Shown here: positions 9,369-27,171 of the stretch, one piece after another | Layout of the letters: every line of letters starts with the position of its first letter | How positions within the stretch are numbered: the stretch's first letter is position 1 | Source: a virus | Lineage: Duplodnaviria; Caudoviricetes | Length of the DNA stretch: 37,214 bases | Strand: one strand, 5' to 3' | IMG/VR virus record: IMGVR_UViG_3300047308_000012 | Span: 1-37,214 of that record | Translations under genes and position numbers: made by a program | Notes under the pieces: generated by a model | Told to the model about the DNA's origin: nothing | Database searches by the model: none | The model's input: the letters and a program-made list of their open reading frames with translations, nothing else

Positions 9369-12113
9369 TTAAGGGTGCGATGCTTTGTAGGCATCGAATT
9401 CTGCTTTGAGTTCTTGCAAAGCCTTCATCAAGGCATATTGCAAATCAGTCTGGTAAATCGACAGGCGCTGTTTAGGGTTGTCCTCAGTACCCCAATTGCT
9501 TTCCATGACCAACTCAGGCGCAACAGATTGAACGTCTTGTGCAACCACACCCAGCGTCAGTCCACCGTCTTCTTCCATGTTCTGGTCGATGTAGTTGAAC
9601 GTCTGCACAGGAATAGCGCAGATGGTTTCAAGGTAAGACTTAGCAGGTGCAAAGTTGGTCTTCTCTCTACGGTCTGAAAGGTTGACATCATTTGCGCTGA
9701 AGTTGGCAATTCCGCCGTTAGAGCGAACAGCAAATCGAGTGGATGAAGTATCGCCAGCAAAAATAAATTCATTTCCAGTTCCATTTGGGGCTGCACTAGA
9801 AAATTGAATGTAATGCCCTCTTGGAGTTGCGGAAGTGTTTACTGTTCCCGCAGCAAATAATGTCGTACTTGCTGATTGAAGCACATGAATACAAGATGGA
9901 TTTGAACTCGTAGTCCCTACTAGCAAATCACCCGCGCTGGTGATACGGGCGCGTTCGGAGCCGTTAACGTCAAAAGTCATCGACCTAGTAGACGTAGCGC
10001 CAAGCGATACCAAGTTGGCATCGGTGTACAAATACCCTGCTGCCACACCAGCAATTCCTAGCCCTAAAATTGCAGTAGATGCACCGTTAAGAGTAATGTT
10101 GCCTCGATTGGCTGTGCTGTAAAGAGGGGAAGTAGTCCCCACCATAAAGTTCCCACTCGCATCCAGCGTCATCGCCTGAGTAAAGCTAATAGCGTTACCT
10201 GCTGTGCCGGAGGCTGCTGTGCGCCAAACGTGAGAACCCGCTGTTTGGTAATAATCTGATGCTGCTGCGGTGTTAATGTAATTGTATGTGCCTGCTGCGT
10301 TGTACAAAGCATTTTGCGCCATCTCAATTGCGCTAGTGCCAAACGTCCACAAAGACCCGCCCGGTAGTTCAATTGCTTTGGCGCTGAATGATGTATTCCA
10401 AGCACTCGGAGTAACTCCCAAGCCGAGGTTGCCGGAGGAGTCGATAGTTAGTCTAGGGCTTGAACTTCCTGAATAATTTACCCAAAAACCTAACGAATCA
10501 GCTGAATGGTTGTATTGAATAAAGCCTTGATATGATGCCGCACCAGTTCCGTCAGCAAAACTAAGGTTACTTGAGTCGGCACTGCCCCCGTAAATGGTAA
10601 TACCTTCCGAGCCAGAACCAGTTCCTACAACTAGATTGTTTGCAAAACTATCAAAACTGCCCGGAGAAGTTGTTCCAATACCCACGCTGCCAGCTGAGCT
10701 AAAAGTGGCACGAACTGTATTGGTGGTGCGAATGTTGAAATCACTTCCGCTTGTTGTGCCAACAAAACTATCGCTAGAAACGCCACACTCAAGCATTACT
10801 GCTGTTCCAGCAGGGTTAGTTATTCGCACCCCCTTAGTCCCGTCAACCGCCGCGTTTGCAACACTAATATCTAATTTAGCCGCTGGCGAACTCGTCCCAA
10901 TACCCAGACCTGTGGTGGTCAGGCGCATAGCTTCGGAGCCAGAAGCAAGCCATTGATGACTGTCTACGTTGATACCTGTACGAGCCAAAATGTATGCGTT
11001 CTGTCCGTCAGAAAGCGCGTCATTTAATGCGCGTAAACGAAGCAGTCCAGCCCCCACACCTGTTCCATATTGAAAAGACCAAATCTTCTGGTCTGTTGCG
11101 CTTGTTGTGTCAGACAATCGCAATTGAGCAAGTGTAGGAGCAGCAACACCAAAAACCGTCCCATCAAACGTCAGCGCACTCCCCGTAGTCAGGACTTTGC
11201 TGCCGTTGAGGTAGGCCACGCCGTTGGCTGTGCCAGCGTTGAGCGTCACTGTGCTGGATGTGGTCAGGGTGGTGAAAGCACCAGCGCCGTTGTAGGCTGA
11301 CAGATCAAGTGTGCCGCCCAGAGTCAGGTTGCCCGAGGTCGTGACTGTGCCGGTCAAAGTCAAGCCACTTACCGTGCCTGTGCCGCCAACGGACGTGACT
11401 GTACCCCCGCCGTCAGTCGTCCACTCAAGAGCCGTTGCACCTGAGTTCAAGCCCAAGCGTTTGTTGCCGTTGCCTGTGTAGGATGGCAACAGGTTTTGAA
11501 TGGCTGCTGCGGCTGTTGTGGCCGCAGTGCCGCCCGAGGCAATAGCCAAAGTGGCAGAAAGACCTGCCGCTGTGCCAGTGGTGTTTTGGTTAAAAGTAGG
11601 CCAAGTGAATGTGCCCGAACTGAAATTACCTGATGTGGGTGTGCCAAGCGCAGGGGTTACAAGCGTGGGCGAGGTAGACAGCACCACAGAACCAGAACCT
11701 GTGGAAGTAGTTACACCTGTACCGCCATTAAGCACAGGCAGTGTGCCCGTCACGCCAGTAGACAGGGGCAGACCAGTCAGGTTGGTGGCTGTGCCGGACG
11801 AGGGTGTGCCCAGTGCGCCGCCGTTGACCAAATAAGAGCCAGCAGGCTGTTTGGCGTTGAACGTGGTCCAGTCGGCAGAGGTCAGGTAGCCGTTAACCGA
11901 ACTTGTTGCCGCAGGCATACTGATCGCAGGCGTAGAACCGCCACTGGACACCACCGGGGCCGTGCCAGTAACAGCAGTAACTGCACCTGCTTTGGCTGCA
12001 ATGTCAGCAACCGTGGTTTTCTTAGTCGTGCCGCTTTGGACCAAAGGCACTTCTTCAGTGCCTGCCAGCGGGGTGGTAGCTGCTGGCAGTTGGGAAATTT
12101 TGATGTCTGCCAT
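9369..12113 (-). CDS. Long fibre protein with S74-like C-terminal chaperone
   Basis: 914 aa; MADIKISQLPAAT start, repeated (R)xxSxGxxGIGTxSP units, SDRREK...GVVAQDV...ALQELKAE C-terminus. Confidence 0.85.
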   Translation of the reverse strand: MADIKISQLPAATTPLAGTEEVPLVQSGTTKKTTVADIAAKAGAVTAVTGTAPVVSSGGSTPAISMPAATSSVNGYLTSADWTTFNAKQPAGSYLVNGGALGTPSSGTATNLTGLPLSTGVTGTLPVLNGGTGVTTSTGSGSVVLSTSPTLVTPALGTPTSGNFSSGTFTWPTFNQNTTGTAAGLSATLAIASGGTAATTAAAAIQNLLPSYTGNGNKRLGLNSGATALEWTTDGGGTVTSVGGTGTVSGLTLTGTVTTSGNLTLGGTLDLSAYNGAGAFTTLTTSSTVTLNAGTANGVAYLNGSKVLTTGSALTFDGTVFGVAAPTLAQLRLSDTTSATDQKIWSFQYGTGVGAGLLRLRALNDALSDGQNAYILARTGINVDSHQWLASGSEAMRLTTTGLGIGTSSPAAKLDISVANAAVDGTKGVRITNPAGTAVMLECGVSSDSFVGTTSGSDFNIRTTNTVRATFSSAGSVGIGTTSPGSFDSFANNLVVGTGSGSEGITIYGGSADSSNLSFADGTGAASYQGFIQYNHSADSLGFWVNYSGSSSPRLTIDSSGNLGLGVTPSAWNTSFSAKAIELPGGSLWTFGTSAIEMAQNALYNAAGTYNYINTAAASDYYQTAGSHVWRTAASGTAGNAISFTQAMTLDASGNFMVGTTSPLYSTANRGNITLNGASTAILGLGIAGVAAGYLYTDANLVSLGATSTRSMTFDVNGSERARITSAGDLLVGTTSSNPSCIHVLQSASTTLFAAGTVNTSATPRGHYIQFSSAAPNGTGNEFIFAGDTSSTRFAVRSNGGIANFSANDVNLSDRREKTNFAPAKSYLETICAIPVQTFNYIDQNMEEDGGLTLGVVAQDVQSVAPELVMESNWGTEDNPKQRLSIYQTDLQYALMKALQELKAEFDAYKASHP

Positions 12114-17467: not shown

Positions 17468-17497
17468 ATGCTATCACATGGATGGGTTTTGTGTCTA
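17468..17497 (-). promoter_or_regulatory. Putative late promoter for terS (near-leaderless transcript)
   Basis: TAGACA-18 nt-TAGCAT with extended -10 (TGTGA-TAGCAT); -10 ends 10 nt before the ATG; no SD. Confidence 0.5.
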
Positions 17498-17501
17498 GAG
17501 A

Positions 17502-17984
17502 ACCCATTGGGTTTTTAGTTTTGAAAAAATTTTCACAGGTTCTGTGATGCCTACGTAGCCGTGACCCCGACCCTTTCGGCCCTACCCCCTCCCCCCTGAG
17601 TCACCACACCCACTGGGTTCAAGCATCCCAAGCGTTAATCCATGCACCAACGCACCAGTAAACCCAATGGGTCAAAGGTTCCAGAGTGCATCCCCAGTGG
17701 GTTCGAGTGAGTGACCCAATGGGGCATTTAAGCGTGACCCAATGGGTGAAAAAGGGTCAATGTGACAAGTGACCCTTTCGCGCAGGCAAGGCGAAAAGAT
17801 AGACACTTTTTAAAATGGTCTTTTATTTTCAGAATCCCAGAATCAACGTCTCTGAGCAAAAGGGCAAGTTGTCACTACCTGACAGTTTGCTTACATTGAT
17901 ACCCAATGGAGCACACCCAATGGGTTAGGGTAAGCACTTAGAAGATATTTTCGTCTAAACCCTTGACACAGTGACCCAATGGGT
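17502..17984. repeat. Array of ACCCAnTGGGT palindromes
   Basis: Copies start at 17502, 17608, 17662, 17692, 17714, 17737, 17901, 17915 and 17974; an outlier is at 18761. Confidence 0.9.
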
Positions 17985-17990
17985 TAGAAT
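17963..17990 (+). promoter_or_regulatory. Strong sigma70 early promoter
   Basis: TTGACA-16 nt-TAGAAT, with a palindrome filling 17974-17984. Confidence 0.75.
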
Positions 17991-24100: not shown

Positions 24101-24787
24101 ATGTCTGAAATCGTCTTTTTGAGCAACGTCCGTCTGTCCTTTCCCCATCTTGCTGAACCACAGCGCCAGATCAATGAGCAGACTGGTAAGGAACGCATCT
24201 CGTACAACTGCGAGTTCATCATGCCGCAGGACCACGTTGGCTTTCAGCAGTTCATGCAGCGTTACGGTGCGTTGGCGCTGGAGAAGTGGAAAGAGCACGC
24301 GCAAGCTGTGATGTCCATGATCCAGAATGATCGCAAGACTCGCTGCTTTGGTCGTGGCGAGGAGAAGGTTAACAAGAAGACCTTCCAGCCGTATGACGGC
24401 TACGCTGGTCATGTGTTCATCACCGCAGGGCGTGACTCGGCCCCGCAGATGATCCAAGCCGATGGTACACCTATCGACCCGAGCAACACGATGGCTTACC
24501 AACAGCTTGCACGCAAGATGTATGGTGGTTGCCGGGTGAACGCTGCCATCAAGCCTTGGCCTCAAGACAACAAGCATGGCCGTGGCATCCGCTGCGATTT
24601 GATCGCTGTTCAATTTGCTGGTGACGATACCCCGTTCGGTGAAGGAGCCGTCGATGCGTCTGGGATGTTTGGTGCGGTGGCGGGTGCTCCTGCTGGCATG
24701 TTTGGCGCTGCGCCTCAAGGTGCGCCTCAGATGCCTGCTGCGCCGTTTGGCGCACCGGTTGGCCTGCCTTCGTTCTTTGGTCAGTAA
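24101..24787 (+). CDS. Single-stranded DNA-binding protein (DUF2815 / gp2.5-like)
   Basis: NVRLSFPHL.EP, MYGGCRVNA, GIRCDLIAVQFAGDDTPFG. Confidence 0.85.
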   Translation: MSEIVFLSNVRLSFPHLAEPQRQINEQTGKERISYNCEFIMPQDHVGFQQFMQRYGALALEKWKEHAQAVMSMIQNDRKTRCFGRGEEKVNKKTFQPYDGYAGHVFITAGRDSAPQMIQADGTPIDPSNTMAYQQLARKMYGGCRVNAAIKPWPQDNKHGRGIRCDLIAVQFAGDDTPFGEGAVDASGMFGAVAGAPAGMFGAAPQGAPQMPAAPFGAPVGLPSFFGQ

Positions 24788-24794
24788 GTAAATC

Positions 24795-24869
24795 GGGGCT
24801 GAAAGCGGATGCTGTGATATGCCAAGTTTCGCTTGGAATACATAAGCACAGACGCAGCGAGTAGGCCCC
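24795..24869 (+). ncRNA. Candidate structured RNA (long irregular hairpin)
   Basis: Nested pairings GGGGCT/GGCCCC, GAAA/GAGTA loop, GC/GC, TGC/GCA, TGTG/CACA, TATG/CATA, CCAAG-TTTCG-CTTGG. Confidence 0.6.
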
Positions 24870-24890
24870 ACCTTGTAAGGAGTAACTGTA

Positions 24891-25325
24891 ATGGCTCACG
24901 GACTTAAAGGCACACCCGAGTACCTTGCTTGGGTGAACATGCGAAAAAGATGCAACAACCCTCAAGGGCATAACGTGCATTACTACGCACATGTGTCAAT
25001 ATGTGACGAATGGGGCGACCCTGTTCAATTTGTTGCAGACATGGGGCTGCGACCAAGCGCCAAGCATCAACTTGACCGGCGTGACAACACTAAGGGTTAC
25101 TCGAAAGAGAACTGCCATTGGGTTGAGAAGAAACTGCAAATGCAAAACACGCGACTTAGTAAATGGTGGATTATTGACGGTGTACGTTACGCTAGTTTGA
25201 GCGAAGCCGCTGCCGCCGTTGGCGTGACAATCAGCAGAGTTAAAGCGTGGTGCGAAGGGCGTACTGACGGTGGCTACATATACCCTCCGAAGCCAAATTG
25301 CTGGTCGGAGAAAAAATATGTCTAA
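24891..25325 (+). CDS. Free-standing HNH-type homing endonuclease with C-terminal NUMOD-like HTH
   Basis: EYLAWVNMRKRCNNP...ICDEW...FVADMG.RP...LDRRDNTKGYSKENCHW; IDGVRYASLSEAA. Confidence 0.8.
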   Translation: MAHGLKGTPEYLAWVNMRKRCNNPQGHNVHYYAHVSICDEWGDPVQFVADMGLRPSAKHQLDRRDNTKGYSKENCHWVEKKLQMQNTRLSKWWIIDGVRYASLSEAAAAVGVTISRVKAWCEGRTDGGYIYPPKPNCWSEKKYV

Positions 25326-27171
25326 CGACTGGGTGTTTGATCTGGAAACTTTTCCAAATGTATTTACAGCAGCGTTTGAACACTCTGACGCCCCCATCAC
25401 CCTGTCCTTTGAGATCAGCGAGTCGCGCAACGACAGCCGGGACATCATCGCTTTTCTCCAGTTCCTCAAGGAAACGGATGCGCGACTTGTGGGCTTCAAC
25501 AACCTTGGCTTCGACTACCCCGTCCTCCATACGCTAATCCGCATGGGTCACAGTGACGCCAACACGCTGTACCAAAAGGCGATGGCGATCATCAACAGTC
25601 AGGACGAAGACGGCAGCAGGTGGATGCACCTTGTCAAACCTTCTGACCAGTTTGTGCAGCAGATCGACCTGTTCAAGATTCACCACTTCGACAACAAGGC
25701 CCGCGCCACCAGCTTGAAGATGCTGGAGTTCAACATGCGCAGCGACACGATTGAAGACTTGCCGTTCCCTGTGGGTACGATGCTGAACCCGCAGCAGATC
25801 GTGGTGCTCAAGCAGTACAACGCCAAGGACGTGCGGGAGACTAAGGCGTTCTTGCACAAGTCGATGGACATGATCCACTTTCGTGAAGAACTCACGCGCA
25901 AGTACCAGCGTGACTTCATGAACCACAACGACACCAAGATCGGCAAGGACTACTTCGTCATGAAGCTGGAGGAAGCCGGTGTGTCTTGCTACGACTTCGG
26001 CCCCAAGGGTCGCACGCCCCGGCAGACCAAGCGCCCGGTCATTGCGCTCAAGGACGCCATCTTGCCTTGGATCACGTTCGAGCAGCCCGAGTTCAACCGG
26101 GTGCTTAACTGGCTCAAGGCCCAATCAATTACAGAGACCAAGGGAGTCTTCAATGACCTTACTGCAAGCGTTAATGGTTTTACTTTTGTGTTTGGTTTGG
26201 GTGGCATTCATGGAAGCATCGAGTCAGAAGTCATTGAGTCGGATGATGACCATATCATTGTTGATCTTGATGTCACTTCTTACTATCCCAATCTGGCTAT
26301 TACTAATTCTTTTTATCCTGCGCATCTTGGACGTGATTTTGTGAGCATTTACAAGTTCCTGTTTGAGCAGCGCAAGTTATACCCTAAGAAGTCAGCAGAG
26401 AGCGCCATGCTGAAGCTGGCGCTGAACGGTGTGTACGGTGACAGCAACAACCAGTTCAGCGTGTTCTACGACCCGCTGTTTACCATGAGCATCACGCTCA
26501 ACGGGCAACTGCTGCTGTGCCTGCTGGCCGAGGGGCTGATGCACATTCCCGGCCTGCGCATCATTCAGGTCAACACCGATGGCTTGACGGTGCGTGTGCC
26601 CCGCAGCCAGAAAGTGCTGGTCGATCTGGCCCGTGCTGCATGGCAGTTGCGCACCGGCCTCAACCTTGAGGAAGCCATTTATAAGGCCATGATGGTGCGC
26701 GATGTCAACAATTACATCGGCGTCTTTATGGACGGCAGCACCAAGCGCAAGGGTGCATACGAGTGGGACATGGATTGGCATCAGAACGCTGGCGGCTTGG
26801 TCATTGCCAAGGTGGCCGAGAAGGTACTGGTCGAGGGTGCGCCCATCCGCAAGACGCTGGAGCAGTGGCCTGACATCATGGACTTCATGCTGCGCACCAA
26901 GGTTCCTCGGTCAAGTCACTTGGGGCTTGAGCGTGACGGTGTGACTACGCAGTTGCAGAACATCACGCGCTACTACATCGCCGAGGGTGGTGGTCGCCTG
27001 TTCAAGTGGATGCCACCGTTGGCCAAGAGGCCCGGTGAGTGGCGAAAGATTGGTGTGGAGTCCGGCTGGGGTGTCCAGCCTTGCAACGACATCAAGGACG
27101 CAGGCAAGTTGCCTGTTGATTTCAACTACTACGTCAGAGAAGTGGAGAAGCTATGTCTCAGTCTAGCGTGA
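25318..27171 (+). CDS. DNA polymerase, family B, with 3'-5' exonuclease
   Basis: Start MSNDWVFDLETF after GGAG; GFNNLGFD, YNAKDV; motif A DLDVTSYYPN, motif B KLALNGVYG, motif C VNTDG. Confidence 0.9.
   Translation: MSNDWVFDLETFPNVFTAAFEHSDAPITLSFEISESRNDSRDIIAFLQFLKETDARLVGFNNLGFDYPVLHTLIRMGHSDANTLYQKAMAIINSQDEDGSRWMHLVKPSDQFVQQIDLFKIHHFDNKARATSLKMLEFNMRSDTIEDLPFPVGTMLNPQQIVVLKQYNAKDVRETKAFLHKSMDMIHFREELTRKYQRDFMNHNDTKIGKDYFVMKLEEAGVSCYDFGPKGRTPRQTKRPVIALKDAILPWITFEQPEFNRVLNWLKAQSITETKGVFNDLTASVNGFTFVFGLGGIHGSIESEVIESDDDHIIVDLDVTSYYPNLAITNSFYPAHLGRDFVSIYKFLFEQRKLYPKKSAESAMLKLALNGVYGDSNNQFSVFYDPLFTMSITLNGQLLLCLLAEGLMHIPGLRIIQVNTDGLTVRVPRSQKVLVDLARAAWQLRTGLNLEEAIYKAMMVRDVNNYIGVFMDGSTKRKGAYEWDMDWHQNAGGLVIAKVAEKVLVEGAPIRKTLEQWPDIMDFMLRTKVPRSSHLGLERDGVTTQLQNITRYYIAEGGGRLFKWMPPLAKRPGEWRKIGVESGWGVQPCNDIKDAGKLPVDFNYYVREVEKLCLSLA

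What the first reader, a model, noticed from the sequence alone, without database searches (positions are those of the whole stretch)
24795..24872. 75-nt structured RNA candidate between the SSB and HNH/polymerase genes
Seen: nested pairing across nearly the whole intergenic gap. A GGGGCU/GGCCCC stem is followed by a GAAA/GAGUA internal loop (AGUA/GAA, loop-E/sarcin-ricin-like), GC-GGA-UGC-UGUG pairing with CACA-GAC-GCA-GC, UAUG/CAUA, and a CCAAG-UUUCG-CUUGG cap. There is no U tract, so it is not a terminator. It starts GGGGCUGA and is followed by ACC, resembling a tRNA-Ala/tmRNA acceptor end without a cloverleaf. It ends 7 nt before the next SD. Inference: an uncharacterised phage ncRNA, such as a processing site, protein-binding operator, tRNA mimic or small ribozyme.
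Basis: partly seen in the sequence, partly recalled or inferred. Interest (0 to 1): 0.72.

Follow-up and report, generated by a model that had tools for sequence, protein, structure and literature searches.

The report
Swappable phage small-RNA cassette
This folded 78-letter RNA belongs to a large phage family with a nearly unchanging core and a freely swapped tip; it is likely cut out of the message by the host's tRNA-trimming enzyme and would then act as a small RNA gripping a host protein.

Summary
The structure is real and is one member of a large phage RNA family: an estimated 880 IMG/VR stretches hold the exact 25-nt core, with no Rfam match. The closing stem and the arm stem covary. Arms are hypervariable (272 arms, 181 clusters). 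In 70 of 78 close relatives the SSB-polymerase gap holds the same G-rich clamp plus ACC tail, filled with about ten different RNAs; only 21 carry this core. Such units form tandem arrays, once directly behind a tRNA. The ends (G+1, paired termini, RCC tail) fit RNase P recognition. Best reading: a tRNA-style processed small RNA with a constant protein-binding handle and a swappable effector tip. Cleavage, expression and partner are untested. Terminator, tRNA-Ala mimic, Y RNA, rRNA sequence mimic and anti-RBS readings failed for this copy. The scan noted a similar, perhaps the same, family on other DNA (e1-6321330). An unreadable 2023 catalogue of IMG/VR RNAs may already list the motif.

The parts
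24101..24787 (+). Upstream gene: gp2.5-like single-stranded DNA-binding protein; the RNA starts 7 nt after its stop codon
   Evidence: PHROG 112; Pfam PF10991, E 1.2e-18
24788..24794 (+). Unpaired 7-nt leader; C at -1, U at -2 (predicted RNase P leader)
   Evidence: sequence; family -1 is C or U in 84%, -2 is A or U in 87% of 283
24795..24800 (+). Closing stem P1, 5' strand; G24795 is the predicted mature 5' end
   Evidence: 4 of 4 counted pairs show two-sided changes; P1 of 4 bp or more in 87% of 301 cores against 24% with shuffled partners
24801..24804 (+). GAAA strand of the loop-E (bulged-G)-type internal loop
   Evidence: sequence; invariant in alignment A1 but fixed by the search patterns; shared with sibling RNAs; motif name recalled
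24805..24812 (+). Core 5' strand GCGGAUGC: two G-C pairs, then the symmetric GGAUG loop, then C24812
   Evidence: variant scans: 24805 changed in 3 records, 24810 in 2 chance-like records, 24808 in one true member in metagenomes, 24811 in 48 and 24812 in 32 records
24813..24850 (+). Variable arm: stem UGUG/CACA, UAUG/CAUA, and a CCAAG/CUUGG cap with a 5-nt loop; only its base stem is shared by the family
   Evidence: fold; arm-base pairs covary; 272 distinct arms in 181 clusters
24851..24858 (+). Core 3' strand GACGCAGC; G24851 pairs with C24812, A24852 faces G24811 (G.A to A.G swap in 22), 24855 is the variable position; a one-nt-shorter GU form exists
24859..24863 (+). GAGUA strand of the loop-E-type internal loop
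   Evidence: sequence; fixed by the search patterns; shared with siblings
24864..24869 (+). Closing stem P1, 3' strand
24870..24872 (+). Unpaired ACC tail (RCC, predicted RNase P anchor), followed by a U-rich trailer
   Evidence: ACC 189, AAC 28, GCC 9 of 277; next base U 58%, C 28%, A 14%
24877..24882 (+). Shine-Dalgarno AAGGAG of the next gene
   Evidence: sequence
24891..25325 (+). HNH endonuclease gene, an optional insert not tied to this RNA (4 of 78 relatives, three payload classes)
   Evidence: PHROG 3377
25318..27171 (+). DNA polymerase gene, the usual downstream partner of the slot (77 of 78 relatives)
   Evidence: PHROG 1252

Best explanation
The element is a 78-nt structured RNA with a nearly invariant core and a hypervariable arm in a swappable slot behind the SSB gene; host RNase P likely cuts it out of the replication transcript, and the freed RNA would use its core as a protein-binding handle carrying interchangeable effector tips. 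Steps. (1) Shown: paired ends, ACC tail, constant two-loop core, variable arm, exchangeable slot, tandem arrays. (2) Inferred: RNase P cuts between C24794 and G24795, anchored by the ACC; an RNase E-type cut and trimming in the U-rich trailer would set the 3' end, as for tRNA operons. (3) Inferred: placement behind SSB gives high copy number during replication. (4) Inferred, weakest: the core binds a host factor, because it is shared by unrelated phage groups with no common neighbouring gene and is dispensable in close relatives. The arms act as decoys, aptamers or, in a few members, anti-RBS loops, and their fast exchange suggests a host-phage conflict role.
For: Family size and core invariance. 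Covariation of both flanking stems: 9 of 11 pairs with two-sided changes, score 0.572, against 0.10-0.22 for slid partners. End signature: G at +1 in 86%, ACC in 189 of 277; RCC is the part that pairs with RNase P RNA, and phage C4, M3 and T4 gene 32 RNAs are substrates (PMC11143913, passages and section 11). A host SRP RNA from Comamonas ends the same way, stem then ACC then U's. Slot: 70 of 78 relatives have clamp plus ACC with about ten unrelated fillings; 30 changes on the SSB tree, 12 being the minimum; L329 and L330 are 98.8% identical in SSB DNA yet differ in payload. Six fetched relatives with other fillings lack the core anywhere in the record (48 of 54 records had an arm). Tandem units: a second clamped unit ending in ACC/AAC follows in 15 of 271, against 0-4 for eight other tails. 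In L106 the unit follows tRNA-Leu after ACCA plus 5 nt. In L357 the arm is a tRNA body (31.4 bits, cut-off 29). The tail persists where no gene start follows.
Against: No experiment, no RNA ends and no partner. The closing stem is only 4-6 bp and this copy has no T-loop, which the review says aids correct RNase P cleavage. The -1 base is more often C (57%) than U (27%). The fourth tail base is A in only 14%. About a fifth of members lack an ACC, AAC or GCC tail (51 of 277), and some sit in other contexts (L021, L054, L055, L091). Payloads still track the SSB tree more than chance (30 changes against a shuffled mean of 38.6, minimum 33), and recombination inside SSB may inflate the count. Invariance of non-canonical loops can come from fold alone, without a partner. 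The two G-C pairs 24805/24858 and 24806/24857 show no compensatory change. The conserved-core estimate is partly circular, because the patterns fixed GAAA and GAGUA.
Confidence: 0.5

Rival explanations
1. A cis-acting mRNA processing or stability site. The stem, cut or uncut, uncouples abundant SSB from scarce polymerase, and the freed RNA has no job of its own.
For: The core starts 5-17 nt after a stop codon in 67 of 94 loci, always on the coding strand, often about 20 nt before the next start. A plain UUCG hairpin fills the slot in 6 of 78 relatives. T4 gene 32 (SSB) mRNA is a reported RNase P substrate.
Against: A plain hairpin suffices for this in relatives, so it does not explain a 25-nt invariant core, 181 arm clusters, tandem arrays with no gene between units, or a place behind a tRNA.
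Confidence: 0.22
2. An antisense regulator like C4: the arm loop pairs with ribosome-binding sites of the phage's own genes.
For: Three members picked for anti-SD-looking loops match own sites: G032 AUAGGAG at 5 sites (others mean 1.4, max 8.9), G213 AAGGGGG at 4 (mean 0.9, max 3.4), G206 AUAGGAA at 4 (mean 0.4, max 3.8). Earlier notes report such hairpins.
Against: 0 of 33 unselected arms and 2 of 17 selected arms pass. UCC/CCU loops are not enriched (29 of 272 against 33 shuffled). This copy's arm is largely self-paired, has no SD-containing complement, and does not match the window's repeated early RBS tag. Host targets were not testable.
Confidence: 0.08
3. An autogenous operator bound by SSB or the polymerase, controlling the next gene's translation.
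For: Frequent SSB neighbour: 13 of 50 upstream proteins hit SSB or annealing families, 18 of 81 after clustering. The SD lies 7 nt after the stem.
Against: Those SSBs belong to unrelated families, and 44 upstream clusters occur. Relatives with SSBs 81-96% identical carry other RNAs. Downstream genes vary.
Confidence: 0.07
4. A small self-cleaving ribozyme whose two invariant loops form the active site.
For: Invariant loops between freely varying helices are typical of small ribozymes (general knowledge).
Against: No Rfam ribozyme model matches at E up to 10. No pseudoknot or docking partner is apparent. The loop-E base is shared with siblings that have other interiors, and the ACC clamp points to host processing.
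Confidence: 0.07
5. A tRNA or Y RNA mimic that is charged, or bound by Ro60.
For: Acceptor-like end. tRNA-like arms in L357 and L331. Loose T-loop words in 11 of 272 arms against 1.3 shuffled (related arms inflate this).
Against: No cloverleaf here, G3.U70 in 0 of 283, A76 in 14%. GNCGAAN0-1G in 54 of 277 and not in this copy. No TROVE gene in 40 carrier records.
Confidence: 0.04
6. A single-stranded DNA signal (priming or SSB loading) rather than an RNA.
For: It lies in the replication module.
Against: U-G wobbles (11 at 24812/24851; 38 in P1), strict coding-strand orientation, an RNA-type loop signature, and arrays with tRNAs.
Confidence: 0.02

Closest known systems
Non-tRNA RNase P substrates: pre-4.5S (SRP) RNA, phage M3 RNA, phage C4 antisense RNA, T4 gene 32 mRNA (PMC11143913, section 11 read)
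   Same: Paired ends with G+1 and a 3' RCC; phage RNA predicted to use host RNase P; SSB-gene context as in T4 gene 32; a host SRP RNA has the same stem-ACC-U end.
   Different: No Rfam match to SRP or c4 models. The SRP loop shares only GCAGC on the 3' strand. No antisense target for this copy. A constant core with hypervariable arms in an exchangeable slot is not described for these RNAs in what I read.
Phage tRNA arrays processed by RNase P and RNase E (PMC11143913, section 11)
   Same: Units in tandem with short spacers and ACC(A) ends; one unit directly follows tRNA-Leu (L106); one arm is a tRNA body (L357).
   Different: The units are not tRNAs: no cloverleaf here and mostly no encoded CCA.
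Bacterial Y RNAs, YrlA (PMC4201824, passages read)
   Same: Design of a protein-binding terminal stem plus an effector domain that can be tRNA-like.
   Different: GNCGAAN0-1G absent here and in 223 of 277 members; no Ro60 gene in 40 records; the 3' strand forms a loop-E-type loop.
Loop E / sarcin-ricin-type bulged-G motif (recalled)
   Same: AGUA opposite GAA signature.
   Different: A module only. The rest has no sequence likeness to host 16S or 23S rRNA beyond shuffles.
Candidate structured RNAs of IMG/VR (Fremin 2023, PMC10690425) and of Weinberg 2017 (PMC5737381)
   Same: Same source database and size range as the 2023 set; this motif could be one of its 8,495 unnamed candidates.
   Different: Their alignments could not be read. 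The passages read do not describe this core, the slot or RNase P (0 mentions of RNase P).

Membership tests
Non-tRNA RNase P substrate | Paired 5' and 3' ends with G+1/C72 | tested here: met
   G24795-C24869; G+1 in 86% of 283; covariation
Non-tRNA RNase P substrate | Unpaired 3' RCC(A) that pairs with the P15 loop | tested here: met
   ACC 24870-24872; ACC 189 of 277; feature. The final A is mostly absent.
Non-tRNA RNase P substrate | Single-stranded 5' leader, U preferred at -1 and A at -2 | tested here: inconclusive
   -1 C 57%, U 27%; -2 A 54%, U 33%; no background control for post-stop composition
Non-tRNA RNase P substrate | T-loop about 12 bp from the cut site | tested here: not met
   6-bp stem then internal loops, no T-loop in this copy; it aids but is not needed for hairpin substrates
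Non-tRNA RNase P substrate | Cleavage by RNase P | not testable with these tools
   only assembled contigs were available
tRNA-Ala / tmRNA acceptor mimic | G3.U70 pair (recalled determinant) | tested here: not met
   G-C here; G-U in 0 of 283
tRNA | Cloverleaf with D, anticodon and T arms | tested here: not met
   no Rfam hit; only L357 carries a tRNA body as arm, not called by ARAGORN
Bacterial Y RNA (YrlA) | GNCGAAN0-1G near the 5' end | tested here: not met
   absent here; 54 of 277 members; feature
Bacterial Y RNA (YrlA) | Ro60 (TROVE) gene within about 4 kb | tested here: not met
   0 of 40 carrier records, control positive in 2 of 14 genomes
c4 antisense RNA | Match to the Rfam model | tested here: not met
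c4 antisense RNA | Loops complementary to the phage's own target sites | tested here: not met
   none for this copy; 0 of 33 unselected arms
SRP (4.5S) RNA | Conserved Ffh-binding loop and tetraloop | tested here: not met
   no Rfam hit; host SRP loop differs on the 5' strand
Intrinsic terminator | U tract directly after the stem | tested here: not met
   ACC follows the stem
Known small ribozymes | Match to an Rfam ribozyme model | tested here: not met
   0 matches at E up to 10
Known small ribozymes | Self-cleavage | not testable with these tools
   needs in vitro assay
Loop E / bulged-G motif | AGUA opposite GAA between helices (recalled signature) | tested here: met
   24801-24804 opposite 24859-24863; the 3D form is not testable here

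The most novel reading that the evidence does not exclude
These phages run a library of small RNAs on a constant-plus-variable plan. A clamp-and-ACC format hijacks host tRNA processing to release any RNA placed in a slot behind SSB; this family adds an invariant handle for one host protein and displays some 180 kinds of tips (decoys, tRNA bodies, anti-RBS loops), swapped like accessory anti-defence genes.
Probability: 0.3. Interest if true: 0.92.

Novelty: new variant of a known kind. Interest (0 to 1): 0.76.

Why it matters
It exposes an uncatalogued layer of phage small RNAs: one family in roughly a thousand viral sequence records, plus at least ten sibling RNA classes in the same format, none matched by Rfam. 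If RNase P releases them, phages have a general expression cassette for small RNAs, and accessory RNAs turn over as fast as accessory proteins. The invariant core gives a direct bait to find the host partner. Cultured Comamonas and Cupriavidus strains carry the family, so the question is testable now.

Tried and rejected
Rfam: no hit in the window; in 60 related loci only tRNAs matched. GenBank phages: one 27-nt match for the window element and only 22-nt chance matches for L044. A second copy in the window: none. A chromosomal host homologue: model R1 hit 2 of 151 genomes of the Comamonas family, both already known loci (filters lose weak matches). rRNA sequence mimicry: 41 of 272 arms share 10 nt or more with host rRNA against a shuffled mean of 31.4, max 42, not convincing given related arms. 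General anti-RBS action: rejected (the 19-nt hit in G050 is a self-overlap artefact). A link to the HNH gene: rejected. Expression: the ten runs found held 4-6% of the words and are contigs only; three RNA runs had no cover at 24760-24843; two RNA-library contigs of a relative run unbroken across a sibling payload, which may be precursor or DNA and says nothing on ends. Literature: nine full-text searches found no description; the hits for the core strings were papers on unrelated topics, judged from the listing. Limits: patterns capped the arm at 50-55 nt, so long-arm members (L357, L331, L635) are undercounted; variants at 24806, 24807, 24809 and in the loop-E strands were not scanned one by one.

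Full report
Setting. The window is a complete 37,214-nt phage record with terminal repeats. Structural genes lie on the minus strand. A replication block on the plus strand runs DUF2800 exonuclease, SSB (PF10991), HNH, DNA polymerase, helicase. The element fills the gap between the SSB stop (24787) and the HNH start (24891).

Observation. The 78-mer folds at -29.5 kcal/mol, z -3.14. It is no terminator, has no Rfam match and is single-copy.

Family. The pattern GAAAGCGGATGC-N25-55-GACGCAGCGAGTA returned 120 IMG/VR loci from 9 of 64 parts, an estimated 880 stretches, and 14 GTDB contigs, 10 titled as betaproteobacteria such as Comamonas, Cupriavidus and Polaromonas. Variant scans added 3, 2, 32 and 48 records and an estimated 230. 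These are stored stretches, not species. Among 301 distinct cores the closing stem is 4 bp or more in 87%, against 24% (max 30%) when flanks are re-paired at random. In a hand-picked 40-row alignment 9 of 11 pairs show two-sided changes.

Core structure. Position 24805 changed in 3 records without compensation; 24810 only in two chance-like hits. For 24808, 101 metagenome stretches gave 73 distinct hits, 5 with a closing stem, and one true member. Position 24812 covaries with 24851, and 24811/24852 swaps G.A to A.G in 22 cases. Position 24855 takes U, A or G, so it is no strict partner of 24808 or 24811. The core is thus a symmetric loop GGAUG/ACGCA closed by C-G, with a one-nt-shorter GU form. 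The loop-E name rests on a recalled signature.

Arms. There are 272 distinct arms in 181 clusters by shared 11-mers. Some recur across phages and some also occur inside sibling scaffolds. One is a tRNA body (L357). They share no more words with host rRNA than shuffles do.

Context. The core starts 5-17 nt after a stop codon in 67 of 94 loci with long flanks. Of 81 upstream ORFs I gave 50, chosen as non-redundant by eye, to PHROGs: 13 hit SSB or annealing families. Clustering all 81 gave 44 clusters, 18 ORFs in SSB-named ones and 26 with acidic tails.

The slot. Of 80 closest SSB relatives (81-96% identity), 78 reach the stop codon. Seventy have a G-rich clamp and a matching C-rich strand plus ACC-type tail. 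The fillings are a GGGGUUCCC hairpin (25), this core (21), a pseudoknot-like RNA (10), a 100-nt RNA (5) and about six rarer types; 6 relatives have a plain UUCG hairpin and 2 a tRNA-like element (four rows of the 'loopE_other' label were relabelled by eye before the tree). On the tree of 66 distinct SSB genes the 13 states need 30 changes; shuffles need 38.6 on average, minimum 33. So there is lineage signal but also much exchange; two phages 98.8% identical in SSB DNA differ in payload. Six fetched relatives with other fillings lack the core altogether, so it is accessory.

Arrays. Among 271 cores with enough flank, 17 had a clamped unit just upstream (about four look spurious) and 15 just downstream; with eight other tails the downstream rule gave 0-4. 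L010 holds four units in a row. In L106 the unit follows tRNA-Leu after ACCA and five bases. A scan for the scaffold with a GU variant found 78 records with 44 distinct other interiors.

Mechanism. The ends read like an RNase P substrate: G+1 in 86%, pyrimidine at -1 in 84%, ACC in 189 of 277. The review PMC11143913 (passages and section 11) states that residues 73-75 pair with RNase P RNA and lists 4.5S, M3, C4 and T4 gene 32 RNAs as substrates. A host SRP RNA ends the same way. Against this: a short stem, no T-loop here, C more common than U at -1. I put release by RNase P at about 0.6. What the freed RNA does is inferred. An invariant core across unrelated phages with no shared neighbour points to a host partner; hypervariable, exchangeable tips point to conflict or tuning. 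The whole model gets 0.5. The main rival is a cis processing or stability role (0.22).

Antisense test. Earlier notes suggested anti-RBS loops. Across 50 arms in 48 fetched records, 0 of 33 unselected and 2 of 17 selected arms matched own ribosome-binding sites at three or more places above background; G206 is a third by a looser count. This copy has none. Anti-RBS loops are at most one kind of tip.

Known systems. It works like RNase P-processed phage RNAs and is built like Y RNA (handle plus effector), but fails membership of Y RNA (PMC4201824 passages), c4, SRP, tRNA and Rfam ribozymes. Nine literature searches found no description. Fremin 2023 (PMC10690425; first fifth of the text, passages, three supplementary files searched and the first part of a fourth read) mined IMG/VR, and its alignment files were unreadable, so prior listing is quite possible. 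The Weinberg 2017 supplement (PMC5737381; listing only) was also unreadable. The scan's note e1-6321330 describes a similar or the same family on another genome; it is not independent evidence.

Verdict. A real, widespread, uncatalogued phage RNA family in a swappable small-RNA slot. New variant of a known kind. Interest 0.76.

Noticed in passing
L321, L325, L341, L344, L364 (gap after SSB stop): A ~105-nt clamped RNA with AAGCCAG/CUGGCUU pairing, pseudoknot-like, in 10 of 78 relatives; no Rfam match.
   Followed up: partly
L302, L304, L356, L363; L307; L301; L345; L348 (gap after SSB stop): Further unrelated clamped RNAs of 60-105 nt in the same slot; those scanned had no Rfam match.
   Followed up: partly
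L349:2186-2290, L354: A tRNA-like element with a T arm and long variable arm fills the slot without the G clamp; missed by ARAGORN and Rfam. UCA sits in its central loop.
   Followed up: partly
L127, L130, L147, L196, L635 (just after the core unit): A conserved clamped RNA with a GGGAC/GUCCC pseudoknot-like part and, in some, a CUCCUUU loop that looks anti-SD; two are in Cupriavidus genomes. No Rfam match.
   Followed up: partly
L076, L177, L218, L546 (just after the core unit): Another clamped class with a CCUUGGUCGG word; no Rfam match for the three scanned.
   Followed up: no
L221-L298: Loop-E scaffold siblings with recurrent interiors such as GCUUCACAUAC, GGCAAUUUCGCC..CUACAG, GCACGAUAUAUUGUGC and CAAGG words.
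   Followed up: partly
L021, L022, L023, L038, L065, L173 and 15 more: A recurrent neighbouring RNA bounded by ACGCAUG and GCCGUGUUGG (21 loci); also a GCC-AGCC pseudoknot-like RNA (7 loci) and ACAGCCNGGAAAGACNGGC (12 loci). No Rfam match in those scanned.
   Followed up: partly
L002, L011, L029, L033, L060, L073, L077 (upstream); L031, L043, L044 (downstream): A ~50-aa cysteine-rich ORF with a likely signal peptide often sits beside the cassette; no PHROG or Pfam match for those tested.
   Followed up: partly
window 18008, 18172, 18455, 22334; 24092, 24882 (+): Repeated GUAAC..GUAA tags before early genes (three end in AAAAGGAU) and GUAA(A/C)UGUAAUG at the SSB and HNH starts; relatives' polymerase starts use GUAACCGUAAUG with no clear SD.
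   Followed up: partly
window 17480-17990: Intergenic stretch with many ACCCAAUGGG-type repeats ahead of a sigma-70-like TTGACA promoter, probably an origin or operator array (seen).
   Followed up: no
window 10391-10403 (+): 13-nt reverse complement of arm 24831-24843 inside the minus-strand gene 9369-12113, so the same sense as the arm in that mRNA; probably chance.
   Followed up: yes
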